A DNA stretch of 64,000 nt, from IMG/VR virus record IMGVR_UViG_3300033141_004862, positions 3,842 to 67,841 of that record; one strand, given 5' to 3'. Made by a program: the position numbers and the translations under genes. The notes beneath the pieces are model-generated. The model did not search any database and was not told the DNA's origin. It saw nothing but the letters and a program-made list of their open reading frames with translations. The stretch comes from a virus. Shown piece by piece: positions 4,975 through 48,528 of this stretch (positions within the stretch are counted from its first letter, which is position 1; each line of letters opens with the position of its first letter).

Positions 4975-5013
4975 CCTTAAAAAAAGAAGGAAAAAATTTT
5001 AGGCGGGAAGCAG

Positions 5014-5756: not shown

Positions 5757-6016
5757 AACCTCCCACGACACCCCTTTCGGAAAACGAGGTTCGGATATCA
5801 CAAGGAACGGGCGATATTCGCTCTCAGCGTCCGATTTTGGGGCGTTTTTGTGCAGACAAGACCCTAGGTATGAAAAAGCCGCATTTTCGCCTCAGCGAGC
5901 CTCTGAGACGTTCTGGGCAGGTGCAGGAGGCGTCGGCTTCGTCCGATGAGTGACAAGAATCATGCCAAGTCGCGGAAATCGCCCAAAAATTTTTTTCAAA
6001 AAATTTTAGAAAACAC

Positions 6017-6045
6017 TTGACAAATAGAAAGAAAATGACTATATT
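6017..6045 (+). promoter_or_regulatory. Canonical sigma70/SigA promoter with UP element
   Basis: TTGACA (6017-6022), 17-nt spacer, TATATT (6040-6045), preceded by A/T tracts at about 5985-6016. Confidence 0.85.
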
Positions 6046-6082
6046 ATTAATAGGAAGAAAAAATCAAATGAAAGGGAGTGTC

Positions 6083-6646: not shown

Positions 6647-6825
6647 GAAGGGGCGTCGTCGTGGAGGTTGAGTTGAGTATCAAGGACGACAAAGAGCTAA
6701 GAAATGTCATCAAGGATATGATTCGGGCCGGGCGCACGATGCGAGCGGTGGGAGAGACGCACTTCGCGCCACCCATACGCTCCAAAGGAGAGATATACTA
6801 CCTTTGAGAAAGGAGGGGAAAAGCC

Positions 6826-20966: not shown

Positions 20967-21755
20967 ATGCCTTTGAAACGGCGAGAGATGATCGAGATTC
21001 TCAGAGTCAAATCGCTTTACGAAACCAAGGTGCGTGATCTCACCGGATGGGGCCGCACGTTTTCCATTTCGGAGAGCGAAAAGGTAGGAGCCCGGAATCT
21101 CCGGTACCTCCAGCGGATTAACAGTAAGTGCAAGGCGAGGGGAATAGACGTCAGAGACTTTCTGAGCGTCATCTTCCATCAGCTCAAGTGGCCTTACGTG
21201 ACGGTCGATGGGAGAAAGCTGGCGTATCCGTACCTCTCCTTTCTCCAGAGCGACAAGACCTTTGACATCTACAGACGCAAACGCCGGGCACTCCGAACCC
21301 TGTTCGGAAACCCAGAGGTCGCCAAAGACGTTATCAAGGCCCACCATCCATCGGTGTACGACACAAGGTTTGCAAATTGCTTCTACGAGGGATTCACAAT
21401 TCTTTGGAACTACAATGAGGAGGTAGGATGGAGATTCATCAACGACCCCCTCCGTCTTTTTGAAATCTTTTTGGCTTGGAGACAGACGTTCACACCCGAA
21501 TTCTTAGCAACCCATTCCAAGTTCGAGGCCGTCCTCGACTTGAAAGATGAGGAGATCAGCGAAAGCGACAGGGAACTGAAGATTTTCCTGGTCGAGTACA
21601 CCAAACGTATCTTCAAACGTATGAACGTCTCCTTCACATATCGAAGGGCGTTGAAGAGGGCGAGGAAGTCCGTAATGGAGAGGGAGCTAAGAATGGTTGA
21701 GCAGCTTAACAAACAGAAGAGGAATTGGAGGCGGGTATGGGACCTGTTGAGTTAG
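20967..21755 (+). CDS. Hypothetical replication protein (possible initiator or helicase loader)
   Basis: Basic helical ORF lying between the origin candidate and DnaB; function inferred from position only. Confidence 0.55.
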   Translation: MPLKRREMIEILRVKSLYETKVRDLTGWGRTFSISESEKVGARNLRYLQRINSKCKARGIDVRDFLSVIFHQLKWPYVTVDGRKLAYPYLSFLQSDKTFDIYRRKRRALRTLFGNPEVAKDVIKAHHPSVYDTRFANCFYEGFTILWNYNEEVGWRFINDPLRLFEIFLAWRQTFTPEFLATHSKFEAVLDLKDEEISESDRELKIFLVEYTKRIFKRMNVSFTYRRALKRARKSVMERELRMVEQLNKQKRNWRRVWDLLS

Positions 21756-30900: not shown

Positions 30901-32091
30901 TTGAGGTTCATAGCGTTTTCGGACCTGCATCTCCATCCGTTTAGGGCGTTTGCCTCTTACGGAGAACGGGGGAACTCTCGGCGGCTGGAGATTGCGGAGC
31001 GTCTCCGAAACATTGTGGACATTGCCAACATGGACAAGTACGATGCCGTTGTCTTTGCGGGAGACTTCTTCCACGAACGGGGGAAGGTGAACGTGACCTC
31101 GATGACGATGGCGAAGGACATCCTCGGCAAGTTGAAGAAGCCGTTTATCGCCTGCTCGGGTACGCACGATTTGACGCCGGGAGGCCATTCTTCAATGACG
31201 GCGTTCAAGGAGCTTGCGGCTACCCTGAAAACGATGCAGGGAAGGAACCGGGTTGCGACGTTCCACCTCGACGAGACGGTCACGCTGTTTGACAGTGCGA
31301 TGACGCAGTGGACTTTCGTTTGCGTGCCTGATCCTTTGGACTACTCGGAGCATTACCGACGCATCGTGGGGGCGCACCTTCTTGCGACGTCGAACCATCG
31401 CACGAACCTAATCCTGGTGACACACGGATTCGTGAGCGGCGAGCCGTGGGGAGGAGCGAGTTGGATGCCGACGGCACTGGATCCCACCGAGTTGAATCGC
31501 CTCTTCGCATTCTCCGTGGTAGGCCATTACCACAAACCTGCCTACGAGAACAGAATCCTCGTTCCGGGAGCCGCCATTCCTCACCATTTTGGGGACGAGG
31601 AGGCGGGAGGAGGAGCCGTGTGGGACGTTTCCATCGAGCACGATTCAAAAGAGGACATCTATCGGGCGAGTTGCACCCCAATATCCTTCACGCACCCGCA
31701 GTTTCGGACGGTTAGGTTGGCAAGCGGAGAGGAGTTCGACGGCACGTCAAGCGACTACTATCGGATATTCACCAACGACCCCGATTTCGTGCTCCCCGAA
31801 GGAATCAAAGGAATCGTCATCTACGAACCCCCAGCGGAGAGAGTTGCGACCTCTGACAGGTCGGAAATCAGGCCCGCTGACTCACGAAGAGATCTCGTTT
31901 CCAAATGGGTGGACAGGAAGCTCGGAGACACGAGGGCGGCTGAGGACGGGGAGAAGGTATCGAGGGCGAGAGAATTGGTTGATCGATTGAAGGAGAAGTA
32001 CAAACGGGTGGGCGAGATCTTGGCAAGCGATTCCCCGACCCTCACCCCAGAGGAAATGGAGGAAATCGAACGAGTGATGGAGGAACGATGA
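30901..32091 (+). CDS. sbcD: Mre11/SbcD/gp47-like metallophosphoesterase nuclease
   Basis: SDLH, AGDFFH, GTHD, TH, GHYH; adjacent to the Rad50-like gene. Confidence 0.85.
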   Translation: MRFIAFSDLHLHPFRAFASYGERGNSRRLEIAERLRNIVDIANMDKYDAVVFAGDFFHERGKVNVTSMTMAKDILGKLKKPFIACSGTHDLTPGGHSSMTAFKELAATLKTMQGRNRVATFHLDETVTLFDSAMTQWTFVCVPDPLDYSEHYRRIVGAHLLATSNHRTNLILVTHGFVSGEPWGGASWMPTALDPTELNRLFAFSVVGHYHKPAYENRILVPGAAIPHHFGDEEAGGGAVWDVSIEHDSKEDIYRASCTPISFTHPQFRTVRLASGEEFDGTSSDYYRIFTNDPDFVLPEGIKGIVIYEPPAERVATSDRSEIRPADSRRDLVSKWVDRKLGDTRAAEDGEKVSRARELVDRLKEKYKRVGEILASDSPTLTPEEMEEIERVMEER

Positions 32092-35021
32092 GGGTCGAGT
32101 TCAAAAAGCTCGAAATTCAGAACTTCATGTGTTTCGAGTCCGCAACGTTCGAGTTCCATGATAGCGGCCTGCACTTGATATGCGGGAAGGTTGAACGTGC
32201 GGACGCACCCTCAGCAAATAGTAATGGTGCTGGGAAGTGTTTACCGGAAGATTCCCCGGTGTTGATGTCAGACGGCTCGTGGCGAAAGTTGAAAGAGGTT
32301 CGAGTTGGTGATTGGGTAATGTGTGCTGATTTCGGAAAGGGCTGTTGCGTGCCGTCTCCGGTAGTTGCAGTGAGGGATTCTGGGGAGAAGGAGGTTTATG
32401 AGATTACGTTTTCGGATGGCGGGAAGGTTTGCGCTTCTGGAGAACATATATTTCCAATGAAGTTTTTTGCGGGCGGGCCATTCAAGATGCGGAGCGTGTT
32501 TGAGTTAGTTAAGAAGTATCAGTCTTCTGACATTAAACCTTCGCGCAGAGCTAGGTTTTTGACTTTGCCCATTGAGTATCCGGAGAGGGCTTTGCCACTA
32601 GACCCGTATTTAATTGGACTTTTGTTAGGTGATGGAATTTGTGATTTGGACAGTCGCCCTGGGTATTGGGTGACCACGACGGATTCTGAGATAGTTGAGT
32701 ATTGCCGAGGGCAGTCTGAGATGTTTGGGTTTGAGCAGAGGAATGATGGGATGACCTATCGAGTTTTTCCTCGAAGATATGGCAGTTCCGCCCCTAGTGA
32801 CATTTTGGCCTCTTTGGGCATGAAGGGGAAGCGAGCAGAATCCAAGGAGATACCCCAAAGTTATCTAAGGTCTTCAGTGGAACAACGAAAGCATCTATTG
32901 GCTGGTTTAGTTGATACCGATGGGTATGTTGGAAGTGGTAGTATGATAGAGTTGTCCACGAAGTCAGAGAAGTTGAAAGATGGAATCGTGGAGTTATTTT
33001 ATTCGTTGGGCGGTAGGGCAAAGGCTGTGTTGCGAGAGGATGGCAAGAATTGGCGTGTTTATGGGCATTTACCGAGAGGTTGCGTTTTGCCCTTGAAGGT
33101 TAAAAGGAAGTTAGAAGTTCACAAGGAGAAGTCTAGGTGTATGTTGGATTATTCGTTGAGGATTGTTCGGGATGTGAAGCTGGTTGGGCGGAAACGGTGT
33201 GGAGATATTCAAGTGGCCCACAAAGACCATTGTTTTGTTTCTCATAGTTATGTAGTAACTGGAAATAGTGCGATTTTTGAGGCGCTCACCTGGTGCCTGT
33301 TCGGAAAGACGCTACGTGGCATGAGGGCGAACGACGTTGTTCGCATCGGTTCCGAGGGAGGTTGCGTCGTCAAAGTGGAGTTCGTCAAGGGGGACAGGAA
33401 CTACGCAGTTCGCCGATACCGACTTCACCCCATCCTCGGAAATAGAGTCGAGACCTATGTGTGGCGGACGGGATCTGCGCCGGAGGAGACGACGAAGAGC
33501 ATCATTGCGGAAACGGACAGACACATCGTCGACAATCTCGGATTCTCGTTCGACCTCTTCCGAAACTCCGTATGCTACGGACAGGGCCTCCCCTACAGAT
33601 TCGCACAAGCGACTGATGCGGAGAAAAAGGGAATCCTCGAGGAAATCTTGTCGATGGGGTGGGTTCGGAGGGGGCGGCTCAAAGCGTCGCAAGCCCTTCG
33701 GGACTATCAGGAGGCTCGGCGAGCGGTTGGGGCGGAAACCGACTCGTTGTGGGCGAGGCTCCACGACCACAGGGACAGAATTCGGGAGCTGTCATCCTTG
33801 CAACAACCGGACCCGGAGGAAGGAGAGCACGATGAGATCGCCAGCCTGGAGAGCGAGTTGAGGTCGTTGCAGAGTGAACGTAAGAGGATAGACGAGGAGG
33901 TTGCGACAATGGTGGCGGAGGTGAAAAAGGAAGAGGAACATCTCAAAAAACTGAGGGACGAGATCGCCGATAGGAACAATGAGCTTACTCGTATCCGCAC
34001 CGAGACAAACTTATTCACCATGAAGATGGAGGCGTGCGAAAAAAGAATAGAAGAGGCGAAGTCCCGAAAACTTCTCGGCAAGGACTGCCCAACATGCAAG
34101 AGAAAGATAACGGCTTCGGCGTTGAAGGGCATTGAGGCGACGGCAAAAAGCGAAATTCAGAGCATCAAACGGAAGTTGCAAAGGCGGAGGAACAGGGAGA
34201 ACGCCATTTCGTATGAGGTGGTAGAGCTGCTGTCCTGGAGGCACCAAGTTGAGGAAAGGTTGTCGGAGAAGATAGCAGTACGGGACGGGCTGACGAACCA
34301 ACGACCAAGCCTGCTGGCTCGAATCGCCTCCTGTCGAGAGAGGATTGATGCAAAGCGGCGGGAGGTGGCGAAGCCGGACAACATCAGCAGGCTCATCCAG
34401 GAGGAGCGACAACGGGCCGAGGCGTTGGAAGAGTCGATTCAGAAAAACCGTGAGTTAGAAGAGTACATCTCGAGTCTCATACGCGTCATGGAGTTTTGGG
34501 AGGAGGGGTTCGGGAATCAAGGTTTGAAATCGCTGATAATCGACAATCTCGTTCCGTTCCTGAACCACGCAGCCCGGAGGTACTCAACAATGCTGACGGA
34601 CGGGGAAGTGGAGGTGGAGTTTCGGACCCAGACCGAGACTCTGAGGGGGGAGGTGCGGGAACGATTCGAGGTCGACGTGACACATCGTTCCGGCACCGAC
34701 TACGCAGGTGGCTCGGGAGGAGAGAAGAGGAGAGTCGACGTGATTGTCCTCCTTGCACTTCACGACCTTATCGCTTGGCAGAACGGTGTCGACACGAACA
34801 TCCTGATTTTCGACGAGGTGTTTGAGAACCTAGACGAGGTGGGCACCGAAAGGCTGGTGCTGATGCTGCGTGACAAGGCCGCAGGATCGGCGGAAAGGGG
34901 CGAACGTCCCCGGGCCGTCTACATCATATCCCATACGGACGAACTCGTGGAAGAGTGTGACGACACCCTTTGGGTGCGCAAGGACAGTCGGGGAATCTCG
35001 TTGTTGGAGAGAAGACAATGA
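32088..35021 (+). CDS. sbcC: Rad50/SbcC/gp46-like ATPase with intein
   Basis: IQNFMCF, NGAGK/S, coiled coil with CPTC hook, SGGEKRR, FDEVFENLD, IISH. Confidence 0.9.
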   Translation: MRVEFKKLEIQNFMCFESATFEFHDSGLHLICGKVERADAPSANSNGAGKCLPEDSPVLMSDGSWRKLKEVRVGDWVMCADFGKGCCVPSPVVAVRDSGEKEVYEITFSDGGKVCASGEHIFPMKFFAGGPFKMRSVFELVKKYQSSDIKPSRRARFLTLPIEYPERALPLDPYLIGLLLGDGICDLDSRPGYWVTTTDSEIVEYCRGQSEMFGFEQRNDGMTYRVFPRRYGSSAPSDILASLGMKGKRAESKEIPQSYLRSSVEQRKHLLAGLVDTDGYVGSGSMIELSTKSEKLKDGIVELFYSLGGRAKAVLREDGKNWRVYGHLPRGCVLPLKVKRKLEVHKEKSRCMLDYSLRIVRDVKLVGRKRCGDIQVAHKDHCFVSHSYVVTGNSAIFEALTWCLFGKTLRGMRANDVVRIGSEGGCVVKVEFVKGDRNYAVRRYRLHPILGNRVETYVWRTGSAPEETTKSIIAETDRHIVDNLGFSFDLFRNSVCYGQGLPYRFAQATDAEKKGILEEILSMGWVRRGRLKASQALRDYQEARRAVGAETDSLWARLHDHRDRIRELSSLQQPDPEEGEHDEIASLESELRSLQSERKRIDEEVATMVAEVKKEEEHLKKLRDEIADRNNELTRIRTETNLFTMKMEACEKRIEEAKSRKLLGKDCPTCKRKITASALKGIEATAKSEIQSIKRKLQRRRNRENAISYEVVELLSWRHQVEERLSEKIAVRDGLTNQRPSLLARIASCRERIDAKRREVAKPDNISRLIQEERQRAEALEESIQKNRELEEYISSLIRVMEFWEEGFGNQGLKSLIIDNLVPFLNHAARRYSTMLTDGEVEVEFRTQTETLRGEVRERFEVDVTHRSGTDYAGGSGGEKRRVDVIVLLALHDLIAWQNGVDTNILIFDEVFENLDEVGTERLVLMLRDKAAGSAERGERPRAVYIISHTDELVEECDDTLWVRKDSRGISLLERRQ
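32238..33266 (+). mobile_element. Intein with LAGLIDADG endonuclease in Rad50 Walker A
   Basis: CLPEDS...SGEH...IGLLLGDG...LAGLVDTDG...VVTGN/S; visibly T-richer than its flanks. Confidence 0.88.
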
Positions 35022-35074
35022 CGACGCGACAGAGAGAAACCTCGAGGTCTGGCAACAAGAGAAGGAGGAGAACT

Positions 35075-35707
35075 ATGCCTAAAGGATTGAGACCCCACGG
35101 CGGGGAGATAGTGATGGTCCCCATCGATGAGATAACGCTTCTCGCCAATCCAAAAATTCACAGTGAGGAACAAATCACGGACATGATGGATTCCATCAAG
35201 AAATTCGGATTTGTTGACCCCTGCCTCATTGGGCCAGCGAACACCCTACTTGCAGGCTATTGCAGGCTCGAAGCGATGAAGCGGCTCGGCCACACAGAGA
35301 TTCCATGTCGAATCGTTCGACTCAAGGAGGACGAATTTTTTGCGTACATCATGTCGGAAGGGAGGATTGCGGAGAAGACAAGTTGGGACTACGAGGTCTT
35401 CATTAAGAAGTACCTGGAAATGCCCGAGGTGGAGAGGGCAAACATAGTGGCGTGGAGAGAGGAGGAGATACAAGATCTGATTCGTTGGCAAGAGGAGCAG
35501 GCTCAACCCGTGGAGATTGAAGAGCCGACGGAGCTTCCTCCCCCTCCCGAACTCGATACGTCGAGGGTGCAGGTGAACCTCTCGTTCCCGAGACGCTATT
35601 GGGACCTCCATCACGAGGAGATCGAGAACGAACTGATGGACTTTTGTAGGAGGCACGAGGGGGCGGAGTTTCAGGCTCGGTTGGAGTTCGGAAGGAGACG
35701 CCGTTGA
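35075..35707 (+). CDS. ParB/Srx-like N-terminal domain protein
   Basis: VPIDEI...NPKIH...I..SIKKFGF..P..I...LLAG..RLEA...LG..EIP. Confidence 0.8.
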   Translation: MPKGLRPHGGEIVMVPIDEITLLANPKIHSEEQITDMMDSIKKFGFVDPCLIGPANTLLAGYCRLEAMKRLGHTEIPCRIVRLKEDEFFAYIMSEGRIAEKTSWDYEVFIKKYLEMPEVERANIVAWREEEIQDLIRWQEEQAQPVEIEEPTELPPPPELDTSRVQVNLSFPRRYWDLHHEEIENELMDFCRRHEGAEFQARLEFGRRRR

Positions 35708-35728
35708 ATCGAACGAGATGGTGACAAT
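35704..35728 (+). promoter_or_regulatory. Bipartite promoter motif (TTGAA-N11-GGTGACAAT)
   Basis: Exact consensus match. Confidence 0.75.
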
Positions 35729-35975
35729 TCTAATTAGAGAGGAAATTTTAGGATGCGGAAGAAACGACGGAGGTGAGAATGGAAAGAAGATTCACAGACG
35801 AGAAAGAGTGTGCTGCCTACGATGCGGAAAATGGTACGTGGCTCATGTGGTCAGCCACGGGCGCTCCGGATAAAGACGGACGGCTCTGCACACGAGAAGC
35901 GTGCAAGCACCATGAGGTATGCAAGAATTATCAGACATGGTACGGAGGGAGCAAGCCACTCTTGAGGTGACGAAC

Positions 35976-36554
35976 ATGGCGAAGACAGTATGGTCAGAGT
36001 CCCTGACTGACGTATTTGAAGCCGCAGAAACGTTCTGCAAGCGTGTCGATGAGCAGAAGTCGCTGAAGCTGTTCATATCTTTCTACGACTCGGCGCTTAG
36101 AGAGATGTTCCTGCGTCCCGAAGATGAGATGACGGAGCTTACACGCACCGTTTGGCTCGACATCATTCGCTGGCTCGTGGCGTACAGAATTGCAAAGCTC
36201 AGGACGATGCGTGATCATTTGTGGATCGTCGTCGACTTGTTTCTACATACAGAACTCGATCCGTGGTGTACATTCACGATGACGTTCGGAAAGACATGTG
36301 CCGACTGCCCGCTCGTCAAGCATAACGCGGTCAAGTTTGAGAGGATAAGCAATGCCGTGATGTCGGTGGACAGCTTCTTGCGTTGCAAGCTGGCAAATCC
36401 TGCATTCCGCGAGATGGTGAAGGTTTTTCAGAAAAAGGATTTCGCCGCCTACAAGAAGCTCGTCCAAAGACAGGTTTTCGACAACCAAGCGGTGAAAGTT
36501 TGGAACGCCGTAAGAGGGAGGAGCAAAGATGGAAAGCGGAGGGACGATCCTTGA
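35976..36554 (+). CDS. Hypothetical protein with Cys cluster
   Basis: GAGGTG RBS; PWC...CADCPL. Confidence 0.65.
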   Translation: MAKTVWSESLTDVFEAAETFCKRVDEQKSLKLFISFYDSALREMFLRPEDEMTELTRTVWLDIIRWLVAYRIAKLRTMRDHLWIVVDLFLHTELDPWCTFTMTFGKTCADCPLVKHNAVKFERISNAVMSVDSFLRCKLANPAFREMVKVFQKKDFAAYKKLVQRQVFDNQAVKVWNAVRGRSKDGKRRDDP

Positions 36555-36882
36555 CGGGAGGACCGGAATGGATTTGACGAGCTACGAGAAGGCCTGTTAT
36601 CTTCTCGCCCTCTATCGTGGTGCTATGGTGACGCTGGAGAGCAAGAAAGAGGCAGAAGAAGACAACAAGGAATTGCATGACATCCTCGAAAAGCTAATGA
36701 TAGGCCAGGAGATGATTCTCAAGTTGTGGCAGGAGGAGGAGACAAGATCTTTCGACGACGTGGTGGACGAACTTGTGGGCCGTGTGGGCGTGGAGGGGTT
36801 TCTTCGCGACGTCACCAAGCTCTTGCAGCTTACGAGAACCGAAAGCCGAGCGGCCGATGACGTCAATGACAAGCCTCATTGA
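36529..36882 (+). CDS. Hypothetical helical protein
   Basis: GGAGGAG RBS, 117 aa. Confidence 0.6.
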   Translation: MESGGTILDGRTGMDLTSYEKACYLLALYRGAMVTLESKKEAEEDNKELHDILEKLMIGQEMILKLWQEEETRSFDDVVDELVGRVGVEGFLRDVTKLLQLTRTESRAADDVNDKPH

Positions 36883-36885
36883 ACG

Positions 36886-36910
36886 TTGAATCATGACTGT
36901 CGGTGACAAT
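36886..36910 (+). promoter_or_regulatory. Bipartite promoter motif driving the Ubl operon
   Basis: TTGAA-tcatgactgtc-GGTGACAAT, nearly identical to copy 1 at 50-74. Confidence 0.78.
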
Positions 36911-36952
36911 TCTAATAGAGAAAGAAGGAAAAAATTTTAGACGGAGGCAAAG

Positions 36953-37276
36953 ATGAACGAAAGAGATGGAATCGAAAGGCGTGCGCAGGACGAACCCTCC
37001 AACACCGAGAACGTATTTAGGCGATCTTCGGAGCGAGAGGGCGAGCGGGGAAGTTCTGATGGCGTGAGGATTGCCGAGTTGGGACGCCCGCCCCACATCG
37101 TGCATTTGGGGCCGGACGAGCACATGACCATCGCAGACCTTATCGCCGAAGGACACGTGACGGGAGCGCCCGACGTTCAGTATTTCGTCAATTCCCGTCA
37201 GGTTCACGATCTGTCGACGAGAGTCGAGAACGGAGACTCGGTCGTTGCCGTGAAGCGCATAACGGCGGGTTGTTGA
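36953..37276 (+). CDS. Ubiquitin-like (beta-grasp, ThiS/MoaD/SAMP-like) protein
   Basis: Disordered N-terminus, then VRIAELG...MTIADLI...YFVNSRQV..LSTRVENGDSVVAV.RITAG-C; first gene of the E2/E1/JAB operon. Confidence 0.78.
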   Translation: MNERDGIERRAQDEPSNTENVFRRSSEREGERGSSDGVRIAELGRPPHIVHLGPDEHMTIADLIAEGHVTGAPDVQYFVNSRQVHDLSTRVENGDSVVAVKRITAGC

Positions 37277-37336
37277 TTCTAACATCTCAGCGATGAGAAC
37301 CGAAGAGCCGGGGAGTCGAGACAAGGAGAACATTCA

Positions 37337-38800
37337 ATGACGCACGAACTTTGGCCGACAGTCACCGTCTTCCGAAGGGGCGTTGCGCAGTCCGCCGCCT
37401 CGGTTCTTTTGGGCCTAGGTGCGTCGGCACCTCGTGGGCTGATGGCAGTACCCGGAGCGAACGAGCAGCAAATCTGCGTATTCGGAGAACAACTCGACGA
37501 GTTTATACGGTTGTGCAGAACCCACGGCTACGAAGTTAGAGTCGGATCGGGAGCGCCGCCCCAACCAGCGACTCCCCAGGAACGAGTTACTCCGTCAGAA
37601 CCGGTACCTCCTTCCGAGGAGAAATGGGTGAGGCACAGGGAGCTGGGGAGAGCCAGGGGGGCAAGAACGAGAGAGCAGTTACGAGAGGAGCTATCCAGGG
37701 TAAGAACGCGACTAAGGCGAAGAAGGACACCCACGACCAGCATTCCCGAAGGCGATATCGTAATGGACGAGTCCGGCAACCTGCGGGTGGACAGAGCGGA
37801 AGCCGAGACGTTCAGGCGTCTCGTATCGACGAAAACGGAGCCTTTGAGGAATGCCGAGGACGAAGCGAGAAAGCGACTTAGCACGACGCGGGTTCAGAAG
37901 GACATTGCCGATAGGATGGCGGACATATTGATAACGCAGTCGAGTTCGCAGATGGAGAAAATGCGGACGCAGCTGAGCGAGATGACGAATCAGTACTTCC
38001 AGATGATAGACACCGCTCAATCCATAGTCGGACTCTATCAAGCCGAAAAGCATCTCAAAAAGGCGTTTGACCAGGTGAAATCACAACTCACCGAGGACGG
38101 CGAGGAGACGCGGAAACGAAAAGGCACGTTCAGATCGTACGCCAGATTGTTCGGGAAGGATACGAAGTTCTACGAGGACCTTTTCCGGAAGGGCTGCGAG
38201 TCGGTCCTGGATACGTTGGCGGGCCAGGACGGAATGGCAAAGAAGGTTGAAGAGGTGATCGAATCAACGGTAAGGCAGGCGGCGAAAATAGACGCGCTCC
38301 GAAGGCTCCTGAACGCTTCATCTTTAGAAAGACGGGCGCATTTGCGAAAAGAGTGCGAAGAACAGGTGCGGCAGATAGCGAACTACGACTTCGTCACCGC
38401 AGTAAGCGTCGAGAACCAGACGCTCCTGGTTGATGTCAAAGAGGTCATCATCATACATAACAGCCAGCGGTGGAACCTGGGCAGGTACAGAATGAAAATA
38501 GCATTGGGACCGAGAGAAGCACGTAGCCCCCGAATCGTCCTGTTCAACCTGGATTGGGGAAGCAACTACGGTCCCCAGGGGCCTCATATCACTAATAAGG
38601 GAACCGTCATCTGCTGGGGGAACATCGGAGCGGGCGTGAAAAAGCTCCATGCGGATTGGAACTGGCCCTTGCTCGTTCATATCCTGTGGAACTACCTCCA
38701 CAGCTACACGCCGGGCGATTGTTTCAACAGGATTGAGACCCTGTTCGAGCAGTTAGGACGTAGCCCCGAGCCTTTGGTCGGGCCTGCGGAAAATAAATAA
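37337..38800 (+). CDS. Coiled-coil protein with C-terminal prokaryotic E2/UBC-like domain
   Basis: Long helical middle; C-terminal LGRYRMKI...GPHITNKGTVICWGN...W..LVHILWNYL resembles the UBC HPNI..G.IC active site (Cys426). Confidence 0.7.
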   Translation: MTHELWPTVTVFRRGVAQSAASVLLGLGASAPRGLMAVPGANEQQICVFGEQLDEFIRLCRTHGYEVRVGSGAPPQPATPQERVTPSEPVPPSEEKWVRHRELGRARGARTREQLREELSRVRTRLRRRRTPTTSIPEGDIVMDESGNLRVDRAEAETFRRLVSTKTEPLRNAEDEARKRLSTTRVQKDIADRMADILITQSSSQMEKMRTQLSEMTNQYFQMIDTAQSIVGLYQAEKHLKKAFDQVKSQLTEDGEETRKRKGTFRSYARLFGKDTKFYEDLFRKGCESVLDTLAGQDGMAKKVEEVIESTVRQAAKIDALRRLLNASSLERRAHLRKECEEQVRQIANYDFVTAVSVENQTLLVDVKEVIIIHNSQRWNLGRYRMKIALGPREARSPRIVLFNLDWGSNYGPQGPHITNKGTVICWGNIGAGVKKLHADWNWPLLVHILWNYLHSYTPGDCFNRIETLFEQLGRSPEPLVGPAENK

Positions 38801-38812
38801 AAGGAGGAGTCG

Positions 38813-39538
38813 GTGGCGGAAGAAAGAGAACAAAACCAACCCGAAAACCAGACCGTGGACTACCAGAGACAGCTCGACATCTTCGACCCGGAGATACACA
38901 ATGGTAGGACCGTCGAAATTATCGGCGCAGGAGGCATAGGTTCGTTCGTGGCTTTGGCTTTGGCAAAGCTCGGCCTGAAGCATCTCAGGGTGTGGGATGG
39001 GGATGATTTGGAGGCCCACAACGTTCCGAACCAGTTCCACCTCGTTAAGGCGCTCGGAAAGAAGAAGGTCGTCTCGACGAAGACGTTGTGCAAGGAGATG
39101 GCGGATACGGAGATTGAAGTCGTTCCTGAATTTTGGGAGCCGGGGAAAGAGCTGAATGGGCTAGTCATCTCAGCGGTGGACAGCATGGGCATCACGGAAG
39201 ATGACCCGAGGCCGGGACGGAAGGAGCTGTGGGAAGCAGTCAGAGTGAGTCCGAGTGTCGAACTGCTGATCGACGCAAGGCTGGGAGGCGAGACGATTCG
39301 CGTCCTGTCGATCAGGCCCATCAACGATGCCTTGAAGCATGGTTGGTATGAGTCAAACCTGTTTACCGACAAGGAAGGTGCAGACTTGCCTTGTACGGGA
39401 CGGTCAATTATCGACGTTGGTTTCGCTGTGGCAGCCATCATCACTCGGTTGGTGAGGGGATATCTGAAGGACGGCGAGGTCATTCACGATATCGTGCTGA
39501 GTATGCGAGATCTAACGCTTATCAAAGTGGAGGTTTAG
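38813..39538 (+). CDS. E1-like ThiF/MoeB-family adenylyltransferase
   Basis: YQRQ, IIGAGGIGS, WDGD.LE.HN.PNQ, K, SAVDS, R, DARLG, putative catalytic Cys194 (LPCT). Confidence 0.92.
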   Translation: MAEEREQNQPENQTVDYQRQLDIFDPEIHNGRTVEIIGAGGIGSFVALALAKLGLKHLRVWDGDDLEAHNVPNQFHLVKALGKKKVVSTKTLCKEMADTEIEVVPEFWEPGKELNGLVISAVDSMGITEDDPRPGRKELWEAVRVSPSVELLIDARLGGETIRVLSIRPINDALKHGWYESNLFTDKEGADLPCTGRSIIDVGFAVAAIITRLVRGYLKDGEVIHDIVLSMRDLTLIKVEV

Positions 39539-39541
39539 CCA

Positions 39542-40567
39542 ATGAGTAAGAAGAAAAGTAGCAAGGAGAAAAAAGCCGCCGTAGTTGAGGTGTCGGAGCG
39601 AAAAAAGCCCGAAGAGGTCAAGTGGTCGATCCGCATGTCGCGGAAAATCCACGAAAAGATGCTGTACATCGCCAAGCTGAGCGAGCCGCGCGAGGTACAG
39701 ATGCTGGCGGCGGTGACGCAAAACGACAGGGAGTTCGAAATCGAGGACCTCTTTTTACTGAAACAGGGGGTGACCTTCGGTTCGGCGGACTTCGACATTC
39801 AGGATGTCGCGGAACTCGTGGCAAGGTATCCGCACCCGGAAAAGCTACGGGGGTGGGTGCACAGTCATGTTCGGATGGGAACCTTCTGGAGCGGCACAGA
39901 CATTGCGACGATCCAGCGACTCATGACGGACCTAGGGTGGCTCGTCAGTATTGTGATGTGCACGGACGGCTCGATGAGAGGCAGGATCGACGTGAGCCTG
40001 GCCGATATGCAGAAAAAGGTGAGAGAAGCTCCTGAACGGTACCAGGAGTTTCGCAACCTCCTGATGGTGCCTGAGATAGTGACCTGGGACGAGCTTCCGG
40101 TCAAGGTTGAGGAGGCGTTGACCGAGGAGGAGAAGTCAGCCATCAGAGCGGAGTTCGAGGAGAAAGTTGGCGGTAGTGAGTGGGAGGAGCCGACCTTCCT
40201 TCATCATGGTGAACGGGTGCTGAGAAAGTATGCGGAAGAAAGGCCGCGCTACCAGCGAACGCTCGACTTCAGTACCACAGCGACTCGTGAGATGTGCAGG
40301 ACTTGCCGCTTTTGGAATCTGTCCGATTCCGGAGGATACATGAAAAGGTGCAAAAAGAGCGGCAGGCTGATGCAAGGAGACGAAGGATGTTCCGAGTGGG
40401 AGGAGCGGGAAGAATTTGATGAAGGTACCGACTCGGAGCAGCTGTCCTGCACTTCGTGCCGATACGAAACGCACGGGCTGACGTGTCTGAAGGGCGTGGA
40501 CCGTGGCGGCAGCTTCTACCAAGACAGGGCGGATTTGCACTGTCCGTTCTACGTTCCTCGGGACTAG
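39542..40567 (+). CDS. JAB/MPN+ (JAMM) metalloprotease with C-terminal Cys-rich domains
   Basis: Catalytic E (REVQ), WVHSH.....FWS.TD JAMM motif; C-terminal CRTC..C..C and CTSC..C..C clusters. Confidence 0.88.
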   Translation: MSKKKSSKEKKAAVVEVSERKKPEEVKWSIRMSRKIHEKMLYIAKLSEPREVQMLAAVTQNDREFEIEDLFLLKQGVTFGSADFDIQDVAELVARYPHPEKLRGWVHSHVRMGTFWSGTDIATIQRLMTDLGWLVSIVMCTDGSMRGRIDVSLADMQKKVREAPERYQEFRNLLMVPEIVTWDELPVKVEEALTEEEKSAIRAEFEEKVGGSEWEEPTFLHHGERVLRKYAEERPRYQRTLDFSTTATREMCRTCRFWNLSDSGGYMKRCKKSGRLMQGDEGCSEWEEREEFDEGTDSEQLSCTSCRYETHGLTCLKGVDRGGSFYQDRADLHCPFYVPRD

Positions 40568-42937: not shown

Positions 42938-43795
42938 ATGCCAAAGAAACCCCCCGAGTTCAAAGATGTGCCATTCGGGCAGATAAAACTATGGGGAAAG
43001 AATCCGCGCCAAATCGAACCAGACAAGCTCCAAGCCCTGGCTCGTAGCATCGAAAAGTACAGCCTCTTTCAGAATCTAACCTGCTGGATCGAGGACGGCG
43101 AGTACGTTACTGGCGGCGGGAACATGCGTTGGAGGGCGATGAAAGAGATCTTGGGATGGCCGCCCGACAAACTGGTTCACATCTCGGTAAACTACCCCGA
43201 GAGCGAAGCCGAGAAGCTCGAGTTGTCTTTCCTGGACAACCAGAGCTTCGGATTCTACAACGAACTGGAGGTCGCAAGTCTCATCCGTCCCCACGCAGAA
43301 GAGATGGATTTGGACTTTCTGTCCATCGAGTCGAGAAGCCCAGTCGCCCTTCGTACCATTCTCGACGACTGGGAGGAGGATGAGGGGATGGTTCCTGTCC
43401 TTGATATCTACGACGGGTCTGCGCCGATGGGAAATCGAGTGCCCATCTCAGGCGACTGGACTGTCGTGGGAGTGGGGAACTACTGCGGCATTGTGCCGAG
43501 GACCATGGCTGAGCCTGTCGTTGAATTACTCCGACGGAAGTTCGGAGAGGCGAGGCAGGGTCGGACGAAAGCTGGCGAGATGATATGTGACATGGTGCGG
43601 CGGGCATTAGAACCCGAGGTGGGACCTGCTCCTCCTGCAGGCGGCAAGGAGGACATGACTGAGCGAAGACGTGCGGAGAAGCAGGCCCGACGTGAGGCAG
43701 AGGCGAAGGAGCTTGAGAGGATAAAGGCCAAACGAGCTGCAAAGAAAGATGCGAAGAATCGTGAGAAGGGCAAACGATCTTCGGGACGCGCTTGA
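42938..43795 (+). CDS. ParB/Srx-like domain protein
   Basis: KNPRQI...L..LARSIEKY...GGNMRWRAM. Confidence 0.78.
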   Translation: MPKKPPEFKDVPFGQIKLWGKNPRQIEPDKLQALARSIEKYSLFQNLTCWIEDGEYVTGGGNMRWRAMKEILGWPPDKLVHISVNYPESEAEKLELSFLDNQSFGFYNELEVASLIRPHAEEMDLDFLSIESRSPVALRTILDDWEEDEGMVPVLDIYDGSAPMGNRVPISGDWTVVGVGNYCGIVPRTMAEPVVELLRRKFGEARQGRTKAGEMICDMVRRALEPEVGPAPPAGGKEDMTERRRAEKQARREAEAKELERIKAKRAAKKDAKNREKGKRSSGRA

Positions 43796-45354: not shown

Positions 45355-48300
45355 ATGAGAAACCTTTTAGAGTCGCTGAACAGCAATACCACGGACGACG
45401 AGCTTATTCAAGATCTCGTCAACGATTTTCGTGTACAGCTCGGGATGGAACCCGAGGACGTGGTCAGAACTCTCATCACCGCAACCGTTCTCACAGGCAA
45501 TCCGAGATACCAAAGCCCGTCGAAGTACATCCAGGAGAAATACGCTTTTGAACCCGTGAATGCCGCCAAGTGGCTGAACGACTACGAGTACTTCGGCCAC
45601 GTGGGAGAGCACACGTGGGAGGTCGTCAAACGAGACTTCCTGAGAGTCATCGAGGCGAACCCCAGGCCGCTGAGGCTCGTTTTGAAAGGGTCGATTGGCT
45701 GGGGGAAATGCGTGGGGGGAGACACAGAGTTTTATGATAATGTTTCGGGGCGCATGATGGCGATAAAGGATGCCGTCGGCAAGCGGTTGGAAGTGGTTTC
45801 TGAGAAAGAAGGAAAACTGGGGTTGTCCTCTGCGGTGGCGACGTATTCGGGAAGAAAGGAATGTATGAGGGTTGAGTTATCGGGCGGATATAAGATAACA
45901 GTCTCAACCGACCATCCTTTCAGGGTTAGAGAGGGGTGGGAAAGAGCGGGAGAGTTACGTGTTGGCGACAGAGTGGCGGTTGTGAGAAAATATGTGGATT
46001 CGGATTTAGCGTGGGAGAGGGTTGAGAGGTTGGAATATGCAGGAGTTAAAGATGTTTATGATTTGTCTGTTCCTGAGACGGGAAGCTGGGTAGGGAACGG
46101 GATAGTATTACATAATACGTTCCTGAGTGCCCTCATCTGTGCAAGGCTCCTCTACGAGATCGGGTGCCTGCGGAACCCTCAAGCCCATTACGGTCTCGCC
46201 CCAGGCACCCACATCTCCTTTATGAATCTTGCCGTCTCCGCCACGCACGCACGCCGCGTTTTCTTCACCACGCTGCGTGACATGATAGACGGCTCCCCGT
46301 GGTTCAACAATCAGTTTAGAAGAAGGGCCGACTTGCTGTCGACACTCTATTGGCCGCAACGCCGCCTCAGCTTTGTGCCCGGCTCATCCTCTGAGCTTGC
46401 GCCGCTCGGTGAAAATCTGTTCGGTGGCGTTATCGAGGAGGCAAACTTCTTCCTCGTTTCGACGACATCCAAGCGCATCCGCTCGCCAGCAGAGCGGGAG
46501 TGGGACCAGGCGAAGAAACTGCATGACAGCATATGGCGGCGAATGAAGTCTCGTTATCAACGCCACGGCAGGGTGCCTGGGATGCTCATCCTCAACTCGT
46601 CGGCGAAGTACCCTGACGACTTTCTCGAGCGAGTGGCCCGGGAGAACGACAAGGATACAATGGTAATCGAGCACGCGGAATGGGAGACAAAACCTGCCCA
46701 TAGGTTCTCGGGCAGAAAGATGTACGTCTTCGTGGGAGACGCCTCCCATCCGCCACGCATCTGCAAGACAAAGAAGGACGTTGAGAAGTGGAAGAGGATA
46801 GGGCGAGTTGTTGCGGTGCCTGTCGAGTACGAGTCGGACTTCAAACGAGATTTGGAGGGGGCAGTAAGGGACGTGATAGGCGAAAACGTGAGGTCGTCTA
46901 ACAGATTCATGACGAACGACGATGCGATCCTCGAGGCGTTTTCTGACAAGACAATTCCGTTGCTTCACGACGACAAGTACGCCGATGGTGTCGAGGCGAC
47001 GGAGTTAACGCGACCGGATTTTCTCAACTGGTGGCGTCTTTTTAACCCTCCAACGGAGAAGGAACGCAAGGCTGGCAAGCGCCTCAGGCCTCCAAGGCTC
47101 AAGCTCCATCACAGAGCGCCGAGGTACGCACACGTGGACCTAGGGACTAGTCAGGACGCGACGGGGGTCTGCGTCGTTCATATCGGCGAAATGAAGGAAG
47201 TACAGCGACGCCACGAAGACGACCGTAGCGTCTACGTCACAAAAGAGATAGTGCCCATAGTGTACGTCGACCTCATCCTCAGAATTCTCCCACCGATGGA
47301 TGGCGAGATTCAGATTGAGGATGTGCGGAACCTCATCTACGATCTGAGGGACAGGGCGAGGTTCAGGTTTCACAAAATCACCTACGACCAGTACCAGAGC
47401 AAGCAGTCGCAACAGACGCTTCAAAAGCGATTCGGGGAGGGAATCGTCGGCCACCTGTCCGTTGATAGGACAGCGGATCAGTACCATCTGCTGAAGGAGG
47501 TCATCTACGAAGGAAGGCTCAAGTGCTACGAGTACAAGCCCGTGATCCGTGAGCTACAGCAGTTGATGTACGATCCAAAAACAGGGAAAGTCGACCATCC
47601 TCCTAACGGGTGCTTCACGGGGGATACGAGAATATCGCTGCTGGATGGGACAGAGCCGATGATAAAAGAGCTGGCCGAAAGAGAATCGTTTTGGGTCTAT
47701 TCGGTCGATGATGACGGGATGATAGTTATTGGAAAGGGGAAGAATGCTCGGGTGACGGGACGAAGGCAAGTCATGGAGTTGGTGCTGGACAACTACAGCG
47801 TCGTGCGGTGTACGCCTGATCATCTCTTCATGACTGCTGATGGTACCTACATAAAGGCGATGGACATTGTACCTAATGAGACTTCTCTCTTTCCCCTTTA
47901 TCGCAGCATCTCTCACAAGGGAGGCTGGTTTGACTACGAGAGAGTTTGGCAGCTGAAGACTCGGGAGAGAAAGCTTGTTCACCACCTTGTAGCAGAGCAA
48001 TTTGGGATAAGAAAGAAGGGCTGTGTGGTTCATCACATTGACGGAAACAAACGGAACAACACACCTGAAAATCTTGATAGCTTGGCGAGACAGGCTCACA
48101 CCTCGATAGAGCCGAAGCGACGGTGGGCCATAGATGGTCACTATGCAGACAGAACGTCGAGACAGCAGAATCACCGTATCATAGCAAAACGGTATATGGG
48201 GGTGGAGGAGGTTTGGGATATTGAAGTTGAAAAGTATCACAATTTTGCCCTCAACGCAGGTGTTTTTGTGCACAACTCGAAAGACGTAGCCGACGCCCTC

Positions 48301-48528
48301 GCCGGGGCAGTATGGAACGCCATAACGAACCAGGAGGAGTCTCTCGTTGACGAGGTAACCGAGGGAATCGTCGTGGAACCCATGACAGATGAGGAAAGGC
48401 TCGCTAGAGAGTCGGAGAGGTGGCTCCTCGGCCTGCCCCCCACTAAAGAGGACGAGGAAGATGCAGAGTTTTGGGACGATGAAACGCTTGGAGCCGAAAT
48501 GGAGGATGACGATGAGTTTGAAGAATAG
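45355..48528 (+). CDS. terL: Terminase large subunit with two inteins
   Basis: Walker A GSIGWGK/T, Walker B IEEA, RNase H-like HVDLG..QD.TG, YDQYQS, K.DHP..G/SKDVADA.AG. Confidence 0.9.
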   Translation: MRNLLESLNSNTTDDELIQDLVNDFRVQLGMEPEDVVRTLITATVLTGNPRYQSPSKYIQEKYAFEPVNAAKWLNDYEYFGHVGEHTWEVVKRDFLRVIEANPRPLRLVLKGSIGWGKCVGGDTEFYDNVSGRMMAIKDAVGKRLEVVSEKEGKLGLSSAVATYSGRKECMRVELSGGYKITVSTDHPFRVREGWERAGELRVGDRVAVVRKYVDSDLAWERVERLEYAGVKDVYDLSVPETGSWVGNGIVLHNTFLSALICARLLYEIGCLRNPQAHYGLAPGTHISFMNLAVSATHARRVFFTTLRDMIDGSPWFNNQFRRRADLLSTLYWPQRRLSFVPGSSSELAPLGENLFGGVIEEANFFLVSTTSKRIRSPAEREWDQAKKLHDSIWRRMKSRYQRHGRVPGMLILNSSAKYPDDFLERVARENDKDTMVIEHAEWETKPAHRFSGRKMYVFVGDASHPPRICKTKKDVEKWKRIGRVVAVPVEYESDFKRDLEGAVRDVIGENVRSSNRFMTNDDAILEAFSDKTIPLLHDDKYADGVEATELTRPDFLNWWRLFNPPTEKERKAGKRLRPPRLKLHHRAPRYAHVDLGTSQDATGVCVVHIGEMKEVQRRHEDDRSVYVTKEIVPIVYVDLILRILPPMDGEIQIEDVRNLIYDLRDRARFRFHKITYDQYQSKQSQQTLQKRFGEGIVGHLSVDRTADQYHLLKEVIYEGRLKCYEYKPVIRELQQLMYDPKTGKVDHPPNGCFTGDTRISLLDGTEPMIKELAERESFWVYSVDDDGMIVIGKGKNARVTGRRQVMELVLDNYSVVRCTPDHLFMTADGTYIKAMDIVPNETSLFPLYRSISHKGGWFDYERVWQLKTRERKLVHHLVAEQFGIRKKGCVVHHIDGNKRNNTPENLDSLARQAHTSIEPKRRWAIDGHYADRTSRQQNHRIIAKRYMGVEEVWDIEVEKYHNFALNAGVFVHNSKDVADALAGAVWNAITNQEESLVDEVTEGIVVEPMTDEERLARESERWLLGLPPTKEDEEDAEFWDDETLGAEMEDDDEFEE
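45709..46116 (+). mobile_element. Mini-intein in TerL Walker A
   Basis: CVGGDT...STDHPF...VYDLSV...GIVLHN/T; 136 aa. Confidence 0.9.
47611..48276 (+). mobile_element. Intein with HNH endonuclease in TerL nuclease domain
   Basis: CFTGDT...TPDH...HHIDGNKRNN.PENL...VFVHN/S. Confidence 0.9.

What the first reader, a model, noticed from the sequence alone, without database searches (positions are those of the whole stretch)
36953..37276. Ubl ends in AG-C: a masked C-terminal glycine needing JAB maturation
Seen: the C-terminus is KRITAGC-stop, one residue beyond the Gly, and there is a ~35-aa charged, disordered N-terminal extension. Known: E1 enzymes adenylate a free C-terminal Gly, and JAMM proteases trim Ubl precursors. 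Inference: the operon's JAB removes the terminal Cys to license conjugation, giving a built-in switch. Alternatively the terminal Cys is itself functional.
Basis: partly seen in the sequence, partly recalled or inferred. Interest (0 to 1): 0.7.

Follow-up and report, generated by a model that had tools for sequence, protein, structure and literature searches.

The report
Phage ubiquitin-like tag with one-residue cap
A phage gene encodes a small ubiquitin-like tag whose working glycine is followed by one extra cysteine, a throw-away cap of a kind already known from bacterial and eukaryotic ubiquitin-like precursors, so the feature is real but ordinary.

Summary
ORF 36953-37276 (+) encodes 107 aa ending ...KRITAGC-stop, behind a GGAGG ribosome site, with a 37-residue charged N-terminal extension that models as disordered. 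It is the first gene of a Ubl / E2-like / E1 (ThiF) / JAB (JAMM) cassette in an uncultured tailed phage.

An exhaustive HMMER search gave 22 family representatives. All 22 keep a near-terminal Gly: 19 at the aligned column and 3 one column earlier. What follows the Gly varies: nothing in 10 of 22, one residue in 8, and 2-8 residues in 4. Cys occurs only in the window.

All 4 phage operons with the Ubl in view carry the JAB, including one whose Ubl ends in free Gly. The JAMM motif is invariant. A complex model puts the Ubl tail in the JAB active site.

This matches Type II BilA/BilC, where the JAB removes a single residue after the Gly. So Cys107 is most likely a dispensable propeptide trimmed by the JAB. 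A functional Cys is disfavoured, and a conserved "built-in switch" is not supported. Nothing is shown biochemically.

The parts
36943..36947 (+). GGAGG ribosome-binding site, 5 nt upstream of the Ubl start codon
   Evidence: read directly from the sequence
36953..37276 (+). pro-Ubl gene, 107 aa, ends ...KRITAGC-stop
   Evidence: 21 homologues at E<=1e-3; beta-grasp model whose best PDB matches are ThiS, MoaD, SAMP1 and CysO
36953..37063 (+). N-terminal extension, residues 1-37: 17 charged residues, predicted disordered; its length varies from 3 to 57 aa across the family
37064..37270 (+). beta-grasp core, residues 38-106, ending in the conserved Ala-Gly
   Evidence: pLDDT at least 90 in the complex model
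37268..37270 (+). Gly106 codon (GGT), the predicted reactive C-terminus after trimming
   Evidence: Gly at this alignment column in 19 of 22 representatives
37271..37273 (+). Cys107 codon (TGT), a one-residue cap; it is a one-codon insertion relative to L003
   Evidence: Cys in 1 of 22 representatives
37337..38800 (+). 487-aa protein with a C-terminal E2/UBC-like domain (about residues 330-487). P416-H417 and C426 are invariant in six relatives, and residue 418 is Ile or Val
38813..39538 (+). E1-like adenylating enzyme, 241 aa, single ThiF domain. GxGxxG, D62, D123, R136 and C194 are invariant in six sequences
39542..40567 (+). JAB/JAMM metallopeptidase, 341 aa. E51, H107, H109, S117 and D120 are invariant, and there is a C-terminal Cys cluster (C303, C306, C315)
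34970..36882 (+). conserved upstream genes of the cassette: a ParB-like gene (34970-35707), a 211-aa protein (35919-36554) and a 117-aa protein (36529-36882). The same order is seen in L003 and L013. In L012 the 187-aa and 97-aa genes are there, directly preceded by the SbcC-like gene, with no ParB-like gene listed

Best explanation
The ORF is the precursor of a ubiquitin-like modifier (a ThiS/MoaD-type beta-grasp protein). It belongs to a phage-borne four-enzyme cassette: Ubl, a large protein with a C-terminal E2/UBC-like domain, a single-domain ThiF-type E1, and a JAMM peptidase.

Gly106 is the reactive end. Cys107 is a dispensable one-residue propeptide that must be removed before the E1 can adenylate the Ubl. 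The operon's JAMM peptidase most likely removes it by cutting the Gly106-Cys107 peptide bond. The same enzyme probably also cleaves Ubl-target isopeptide bonds.

The cap is not a conserved regulatory device. In this family the residues after the Gly come and go, presumably because a resident trimming peptidase makes them harmless.

Shown here: the sequence, the family pattern, the intact catalytic motifs and the synteny. Inferred: the trimming itself, the enzyme that does it, adenylation, and conjugation.
For: 1. The Gly is conserved and the tail is not. Of 22 representatives, Gly is at the aligned column in 19 and one column earlier in 3. Ten end in Gly. Eight have one extra residue (C, I, Q, V, A, A, A, S), one has two, and three have 4, 5-6 and 8.
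2. The tail state needs at least 8 changes on a tree of the 22. Four sister pairs with SH-aLRT 81-91 differ in tail state.
3. At the DNA level the cap is a one-codon difference: window GGT TGT TGA, L013 GGT ATC TAA, L012 GGG GTC TGA, L003 GGA TGA.
4. A JAB is present in all 4 phage operons with the Ubl in view (tails C, I, V and none). The JAMM residues E..HxHx7Sx2D are invariant in 5 JABs. The best solved relatives by sequence are Rpn11 (1.3e-4) and AMSH-LP.
5. Complex model of JAB 20-215 + Zn + Ubl 36-107: score 0.82, best of 3 controls 0.00. That mark was reached by 58 of 80 solved complexes and 2 of 110 mismatched pairs. The runs agree in at least 95% of contacts and the partner pLDDT is at least 90. 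The interface includes JAB residues 51, 107, 109 and 117-120 and Ubl residues 100-107.
6. Precedent: E. aridi BilC cuts BilA between Gly97 and Ala98, one residue from the end, and Type II BilA homologues carry up to nine residues after the Gly (section 7 read). BubCD cuts after the conserved Gly (passages). QbsD/QbsE and CxnF/CxnE are described the same way (passages).
7. E1: Pfam ThiF 4.3e-13, with an invariant nucleotide-binding loop and Cys.
8. E2-like domain: a six-sequence profile hits UBE2L3 in 9 of 10 PDB rows (E 0.12-0.17), and its invariant Cys aligns on the Cys after UBE2L3's HPNI. Of the 49 Foldseek rows listed, 48 are E2 entries (E 0.03-0.17). VIA gives Z 5.8-6.8.
Against: There is no biochemical evidence of any kind. 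The complex model may pass from memory, because JAMM-Ubl complexes (BilC-BilA, Rpn11, AMSH-LP) are already solved.

Ubl fold matches are weak: no Foldseek row reaches E<=0.001, and the best is ThiS at 0.037. No Pfam model hits the window's Ubl, and ThiS hits only 4 of 22 members. The E2 assignment rests on three individually weak lines, and Z below 8 can be a common arrangement.

Genomic context is known for only 4 of the 22 Ubl representatives. A cellular relative (L010) has a Ubl-like gene ending QG-S but no JAB among the six ORFs I scanned, so another peptidase can apparently do the job there, or trimming is not needed. The tree is poorly supported: 1 of 19 inner branches is starred. I could not confirm the Cys codon in reads.
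Confidence: 0.65

Rival explanations
1. Regulated licence: the cap keeps the Ubl inert until the JAB is made or activated, timing conjugation during infection.
For: The JAB is the last gene of the cassette. Twelve of 22 representatives are capped. Trimming before adenylation is established for BilA.
Against: Ten of 22 representatives have a free Gly, and the state flips at least 8 times on the tree. The free-Gly operon L003 keeps its JAB and the same gene order. All four genes lie head to tail on one strand, with no sign of separate control. BilA caps are described simply as pre-processing.
Confidence: 0.12
2. The cap is removed by some other peptidase, or need not be removed at all because the E1 tolerates one extra residue. 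The JAB then serves only to take conjugates apart.
For: The Binatia-MAG relative L010 has a Ubl-like gene ending QG-S with no JAB among the six ORFs scanned. The E1's best solved relatives by sequence include PaaA and MccB. From recall, those enzymes act on non-Gly peptide C-termini.
Against: The complex model puts the tail in the JAMM site. Operon JABs do the trimming in Bil and Bub. The residue after the Gly has no constant chemistry (C, I, Q, V, A, S or longer), which speaks against an E1 that uses it.
Confidence: 0.13
3. The terminal Cys is itself functional. It could be a thiol that ligates the JAMM zinc, forms a disulfide or takes part in sulfur chemistry, or it could mimic the CysO-cysteine adduct that the JAMM enzyme Mec+ hydrolyses (that system is recalled, not from a call).
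For: The window's tail is a Cys. QbsE's two-residue tail also begins with Cys. CysO is among the fold matches.
Against: Cys is present in 1 of 22 representatives, and the three other phage operons in view have I, V or nothing. There is no rhodanese or sulfurtransferase in the cassette.
Confidence: 0.04
4. The Ubl is a sulfur carrier (ThiS/MoaD/QbsE-like) matured by the JAMM enzyme, not a protein modifier.
For: The best fold matches are ThiS, MoaD and CysO. ThiS is the only Pfam family hit by several members, 4 of 22. JAMM maturation of sulfur carriers is known.
Against: An E2/UBC-like protein with an invariant His and Cys sits between the Ubl and the E1 in all operons seen. The E1 is 241 aa with no rhodanese domain. 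There are no cofactor or siderophore biosynthesis genes nearby; the neighbours are ParB-like, recombination and packaging genes.
Confidence: 0.05

Closest known systems
Type II Bil (BilABCD) of Ensifer aridi and relatives; operon class 6d of Iyer, Burroughs and Aravind 2006 (PMC1779556)
   Same: A stand-alone Ubl with a conserved Gly followed by 0-9 variable residues. A separate E2, E1 and JAMM peptidase. BilC removes exactly one residue (Ala98) after Gly97 and also cleaves conjugates (section read; passages). Here the tails are 0-8 residues.
   Different: This cassette is carried by a phage rather than a bacterial defence locus. The E1 is a 241-aa single ThiF domain, not the tandem IAD-AAD-CYS BilD. 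The E2-like domain is the C-terminal third of a 476-590-aa protein and keeps a His in the E2 motif. The JAB has a Cys-rich C-terminal extension. The gene order is Ubl-E2-E1-JAB. No PADLOC, Pfam or NCBIfam model links the Ubl or the E2 to any named family.
Sulfur-carrier precursors matured by JAMM peptidases: QbsE/QbsD (thioquinolobactin) and CxnE/CxnF (chuangxinmycin)
   Same: A beta-grasp carrier whose Gly end is masked (CF in QbsE, ten residues in CxnE) and is described as exposed by a cluster-encoded JAMM enzyme (passages).
   Different: Those clusters have no E2 and lead to thiocarboxylate chemistry through a MoeZ/rhodanese step. Here an E2-like protein is present and no sulfurtransferase was found.
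Type I Bub (6E/DUF6527) operons
   Same: The JAMM domain cuts immediately after a conserved Gly to free the Ubl (passages).
   Different: In Bub the Ubl is fused to its E2, the JAB is fused to the E1, and there is an extra serine protease, BubE. Here all four are separate genes.
PRTRC cassette (ParB-related, ThiF-related; NCBIfam TIGR03734/TIGR03736) of plasmids and ICEs
   Same: A ParB-like gene and a ThiF-like gene together on a mobile element. This lead came from earlier scan notes.
   Different: Scores fall far below the cut-offs: PRTRC_ThiF 19.8 bits against 144.75, and PRTRC_parB 17.4 against 278.6. No other PRTRC model hits at E<=0.1.
Eukaryotic ubiquitin and Ubl precursors
   Same: One or a few residues after the terminal Gly are removed by deubiquitinases before E1 activation (general statement). 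From recall only, human polyubiquitin-B ends in one extra Cys.
   Different: Trimming there is done mostly by cysteine-protease DUBs, and the E1 is a large multi-domain enzyme.

Membership tests
Ubiquitin-like beta-grasp modifiers (ThiS/MoaD/Ub superfamily) | beta-grasp fold | tested here: met
   The AF2 model has pLDDT of about 80-85 over residues 51-100. The top Foldseek rows are ThiS 3cwi (E 0.037, prob 1.00, TM by target 0.63), MoaD, SAMP1 and CysO, but none reaches E<=0.001. Pfam ThiF's partner family ThiS hits 4 of 22 members, best E 4.2e-4. Support is moderate, not strong.
Ubiquitin-like beta-grasp modifiers (ThiS/MoaD/Ub superfamily) | conserved Gly at or near the C-terminus | tested here: met
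   Gly is at the aligned column in 19 of 22 representatives and one column earlier in 3 of 22.
Ubiquitin-like beta-grasp modifiers (ThiS/MoaD/Ub superfamily) | C-terminus adenylated by a cognate E1 | not testable with these tools
   An adjacent ThiF-type E1 is present; activity is unknown.
Type II Bil (BilABCD) | Ubl with a conserved Gly followed by a short variable tail removed by the operon's JAB | tested here: inconclusive
   The sequence pattern is met: 0-8 residues after the Gly, against up to nine in BilA. Cleavage itself was not tested. The complex model passes at 0.82 against a best control of 0.00, a mark reached by 58 of 80 solved complexes and 2 of 110 mismatched pairs; the runs agree in at least 95% of contacts and partner pLDDT is at least 90.
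Type II Bil (BilABCD) | [quoted passage not shown] | tested here: not met
   The E1 is 241 aa with one ThiF domain. The definition is (passage of PMC11601596).
Type II Bil (BilABCD) | bacterial anti-phage defence locus | tested here: not met
   The window is a virus record with portal, capsid protease, major head protein and replication genes. No defence function was tested.
JAMM/MPN+ metallopeptidases | catalytic motif E...HxHx7Sx2D | tested here: met
   E51, H107, H109, S117 and D120 are invariant in 5 sequences. Prok-JAB scores 25.2 bits against a cut-off of 25. Rpn11 scores 1.3e-4.
E2/UBC ubiquitin-conjugating enzymes | UBC fold | tested here: inconclusive
   The model has pLDDT 69 and pTM 0.68. 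Of the 49 listed Foldseek rows, 48 are E2 entries, but at E 0.03-0.17. VIA gives Z 5.8-6.8, rmsd about 4 and about 120 aligned residues, below the Z of 8 the tool calls safe. No Pfam hit.
E2/UBC ubiquitin-conjugating enzymes | catalytic Cys a fixed distance after an HPN-type motif | tested here: met
   P, H and C are invariant in 6 sequences. The HMMER alignment to UBE2L3 lays the family's [H/G]-P-H-I...C on HPNI...C (E 0.12). That this is UBE2L3's catalytic Cys is recalled, not from a call.
PRTRC cassette (NCBIfam) | ThiF and ParB proteins reaching the PRTRC model cut-offs; PRTRC proteins A-F present | tested here: not met
   19.8 bits against 144.75 and 17.4 against 278.6. No other PRTRC model hits at E<=0.1 for nine proteins of the region.
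Sulfur-carrier/JAMM maturation systems (QbsE/QbsD type) | sulfurtransferase (rhodanese/MoeZ) partner and no E2 | tested here: not met
   No such domain was found in the cassette proteins. An E2-like protein is present.

The most novel reading that the evidence does not exclude
In the capped lineages, such as this one, the one-residue cap acts as a real licence. Tagging of host or phage proteins would then start only once the last gene product, the JAB, has accumulated. The Cys thiol of this particular cap could transiently ligate the JAMM zinc and slow its own removal.
Probability: 0.08. Interest if true: 0.65.

Novelty: new variant of a known kind. Interest (0 to 1): 0.33.

Why it matters
The focal feature, a Gly masked by one residue, is what bacterial BilA, sulfur carriers such as QbsE, and eukaryotic ubiquitin precursors already show. 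On its own it teaches little.

Two things are mildly useful. First, the family gives a clean natural experiment. About half of the representatives are capped and half are not, and the state flips repeatedly. That argues that such caps drift neutrally wherever a trimming JAMM peptidase is resident.

Second, the cassette is carried by a lineage of uncultured tailed phages, and its Ubl and E2-like proteins match no family model. I found no description of phage-run Ubl-E2-E1-JAB conjugation in three full-text searches. Earlier notes of this scan list other phage kits. What a phage tags with such a kit is an open and testable question.

Tried and rejected
**Searches that found only the query or nothing**
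- Word-indexed homologue searches found only the query itself, both for the Ubl and for the E2-like C-terminal part.
- The search for related loci found nothing with the E2-like protein alone or with P0004.
- The search for related loci could not use the Ubl alignments A3 and A4, because no stretch was conserved enough.
- The single metagenome scan added only a 2.4-kb contig without the Ubl, L007.
- The single genome scan gave L010, plus a weak hit L011 (38% over 57 residues) that I did not examine.
- Pfam, PHROGs, PADLOC and NCBIfam give nothing for the window's Ubl or the E2-like protein.
- The protein atlas returned only unnamed, mostly viral clusters scoring under 0.9.
- The E2-like protein has no tblastn match in 50,697 deposited phage records.
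- No sequencing run was listed, so read laying was not used and neither expression nor the Cys codon could be checked.
- Earlier-findings look-ups by place and by sequence were empty.

**Readings considered and set aside**
- Cys107 as a conserved working residue: rejected, since Cys occurs in 1 of 22 representatives.
- The minus-strand ORF 36863..37333 as the real gene: set aside. The plus-strand ORF has homologues and synteny, and all genes identified in the window lie on the plus strand. I did not search the minus-strand ORF itself.
- Read-through of TGA: not pursued. The frame would stop two codons later at TAA, and I made no test of another genetic code.

**Dropped row**
- P0017, a 1163-aa repeat protein (E 1.3e-5 over 56 residues), was dropped from the family.

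Full report
**1. Observation**

ORF 36953..37276 on the + strand encodes 107 residues ending ...VAVKRITAGC. Read in the ORF's frame, the last codons are GCG GGT TGT TGA, with Gly106 at 37268-37270, Cys107 at 37271-37273 and the stop at 37274-37276. A GGAGG lies 5 nt before the ATG.

The first 37 residues precede the first beta-strand, and 17 of them are charged. A single-sequence AlphaFold2 model gives them pLDDT below 50, against about 80-85 for residues 51-100. The confident part forms strands at 38-42, 75-79, 82-84 and 96-104 and a helix at 60-66.

**2. Setting**

The window is part of an IMG/VR virus record of 67.8 kb, estimated 40% complete. It is a tailed phage:
- portal protein, 6.9e-44
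- head maturation protease, 2.6e-40
- major head protein, 2.6e-56
- DNA polymerase, 1.7e-111
- DnaB-like helicase, 2.6e-68 (all)
- RecA, plus SbcD- and SbcC-like genes

The Ubl gene opens a head-to-tail run of four genes:
- Ubl, 36953-37276
- a 487-aa protein, 37337-38800
- a 241-aa ThiF-family E1, 38813-39538 (Pfam 4.3e-13; PHROG 15670, 4e-16)
- a 341-aa JAB, 39542-40567 (Prok-JAB, 25.2 bits against a cut-off of 25)

Upstream lie a ParB-like gene and two small conserved genes.

**3. The Ubl is real and belongs to a small family**

The window's Ubl hits no Pfam, PHROG, PADLOC or NCBIfam model. The word-indexed search found only the query itself.

HMMER against 1.84 billion cluster representatives found 23 proteins at E<=1e-3. 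I dropped one, P0017, a 1163-aa repeat protein. That leaves 22 rows including the window's.

Foldseek of the model against the PDB gives no row at E<=0.001. Its best rows are ThiS (3cwi, E 0.037, prob 1.00), MoaD, ThiS again, SAMP1 and CysO. Pfam ThiS hits 4 of the 22 members. This is a ThiS/MoaD-type beta-grasp protein, with moderate support.

**4. The C-terminus across the family**

- Gly occupies the column of Gly106 in 19 of 22 rows. In the other three the Gly is one column earlier (endings GA, GAA, GA).
- Ten of 22 end in that Gly.
- Eight carry one extra residue: C in the window, then I, Q, V, A, A, A, S.
- One carries two (AA).
- Three carry longer tails of 4, 5-6 and 8 residues.
- Cys occurs once, in the window.

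On a quick maximum-likelihood tree of the beta-grasp columns, with the tail columns left out, the capped/uncapped state needs at least 8 changes. Four sister pairs with SH-aLRT 81-91 differ in state. The tree is otherwise weak, with 1 of 19 inner branches starred.

At the DNA level the cap is a one-codon difference between relatives.

**5. Operon context of relatives**

I recovered three further distinct phage operons with the same gene order:

| Locus | Contig | Ubl ending | JAB |
|---|---|---|---|
| L003 (L002 is near-identical) | IMG/VR, 63.8 kb (L002: 70.9 kb) | AG-stop | 404 aa |
| L013 | IMG/VR, 100.8 kb | AGI | 426 aa |
| L012 | IMG/VR, 25.8 kb | AGV | 289 aa |

So all 4 operons with the Ubl in view have the JAB, including the one that needs no trimming.

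A 2.4-kb metagenome contig (L007) shows the E2-like gene, E1 and JAB, but it starts inside the E2 gene.

A Binatia MAG (L010) has the E2-like gene, an E1 and a 97-aa Ubl-like gene ending QGS. There is no JAB among the six ORFs I scanned.

**6. The enzymes look active**

*JAB.* E51, H107, H109, S117 and D120, the JAMM motif, are invariant in five sequences, as are three C-terminal cysteines. The best solved relatives by sequence are Rpn11 and AMSH-LP.

*E1.* The GxGxxG loop, D62, D123, R136 and C194 are invariant in six sequences. Its solved relatives are PaaA, TcdA, UBA5, Uba4, MccB and MoeB.

*The 487-aa protein.* Its last 160 or so residues carry an invariant P-H and an invariant C-x-G in six sequences. 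Three lines point to an E2:
- A profile of these six hits UBE2L3 or an engineered variant in 9 of 10 PDB rows (E 0.12-0.17). The alignment runs from the first helix to the Cys and lays the family's motif on HPNI...C.
- The AF2 model (pLDDT 69, pTM 0.68) retrieves E2 entries in 48 of the 49 listed Foldseek rows (E 0.03-0.17).
- VIA gives Z of 5.8-6.8.

Each line is weak, but together they make an E2-like enzyme likely.

**7. JAB-Ubl model**

I modelled JAB 20-215 with zinc and Ubl 36-107, each with its own alignment. The score was 0.82 in three runs (0.81-0.82), against a best of 3 controls of 0.00. That mark was reached by 58 of 80 solved complexes and 2 of 110 mismatched pairs. The runs agree in at least 95% of contacts, and the partner pLDDT is at least 90.

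The confident interface includes all five JAMM residues and Ubl residues 100-107. Comparable complexes have been solved (BilC-BilA), so this shows likeness to them, not binding.

**8. What is known**

Chambers et al. (bioRxiv 10.1101/2023.09.26.559546; section 7 and passages read) showed that E. aridi BilC cuts BilA between Gly97 and Ala98, one residue from the end. They also report that Type II BilA homologues carry up to nine residues after the Gly.

The Bub preprint (PMC11601596; passages) shows a JAB cutting right after the conserved Gly. It also defines BilD as a tandem-domain E1.

PMC5925218 (passages) describes QbsE (GG-CF) and CxnE (GG plus ten residues) as JAMM-matured sulfur carriers.

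Iyer et al. 2006 (PMC1779556; section 14 and passages) predicted that JABs both process and remove such Ubls.

The 0-8-residue pattern found here mirrors BilA.

**9. Verdict**

Cys107 is most likely a dispensable one-residue propeptide. The cassette's JAMM peptidase probably removes it to expose Gly106 for the E1 (confidence about 0.65).

A conserved switch is not supported, because caps come and go and the uncapped operon keeps its JAB. A functional Cys is unlikely.

The cassette is not a Bil member. Its E1 is a single domain, it lies on a phage, and no family model hits. It is not a PRTRC member either, with scores far below the cut-offs. It works like Bil as far as sequence can tell.

I found no paper on phage-run cassettes of this kind in three searches. 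Everything about activity is inference, and the mass-spectrometry and E1 assays listed under next steps would settle it.

Noticed in passing
window 17283-20201, 21725-24313, 32088-35021, 45355-48528: Four large genes carry intein or homing-endonuclease signatures. They are an SF2 helicase (Hint_2, LAGLIDADG_3), a DnaB-like helicase (Intein_splicing 6.1e-18, LAGLIDADG_3), an SbcC-like ATPase (Hint, LAGLIDADG_3, Hom_end) and a 1057-aa protein with a weak terminase-large-subunit hit (Intein_splicing 1.3e-28, HNH_3). That is an unusual density for 64 kb.
   Followed up: partly
L010 2562-5261 (Candidatus Binatia MAG contig): A cellular relative of the cassette: a 590-aa E2-like protein with the same P-H...C motif, a 263-aa ThiF E1, then a 97-aa Ubl-like gene ending QGS. 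There is no JAB among the six ORFs scanned. The neighbours are two Exo_endo_phos proteins and an AAA_28 protein.
   Followed up: partly
L014 (Flavobacterium phage FpV4, NC_041872.1) 1610-6712: Cultured F. psychrophilum phages (29 records) encode a ThiF-like protein 29.5% identical to the window's E1. Directly before it lies a 423-aa protein with a visible HxHx7Sx2D motif (Prok-JAB, 0.0076). Upstream, a 289-aa protein has an N-terminal part that by eye looks Ubl-like and ends in SGG before a long tail; I did not verify this. It may be a culturable model for a related kit.
   Followed up: partly
window 34970-36882 and 42938-43795: ParB-like genes lie on both sides of the cassette: one directly upstream, the other about 2.4 kb downstream of the JAB. 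Two small genes (211 and 117 aa) lie between the upstream ParB and the Ubl. The upstream ParB and both small genes are syntenic in L003 and L013; in L012 only the two small genes are, preceded by the SbcC-like gene. Their function is unknown. The gene content recalls the PRTRC cassette, but its models score far below their cut-offs.
   Followed up: partly
window 40448-40567 (JAB residues 303-341); L003 6695-6990; L013 9718-10150: The JAB carries a C-terminal cluster of cysteines (C303, C306 and C315 invariant in five sequences). In two relatives it also has an N-terminal Cys-rich extension. These may be zinc-ribbon modules of unknown role.
   Followed up: no
window 37268-37276: The end reads GGT TGT TGA. 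This contains a tandem GTT GTT, so a 3-nt duplication of an ancestral GGT TGA (Gly-stop, as in L003's GGA TGA) would create the Cys cap in one step. This is speculative.
   Followed up: no
window 36863-37333, minus strand: A 156-aa ORF overlaps the whole Ubl gene on the opposite strand. It is probably spurious, because the plus-strand ORF has homologues and synteny, but I did not search it.
   Followed up: no
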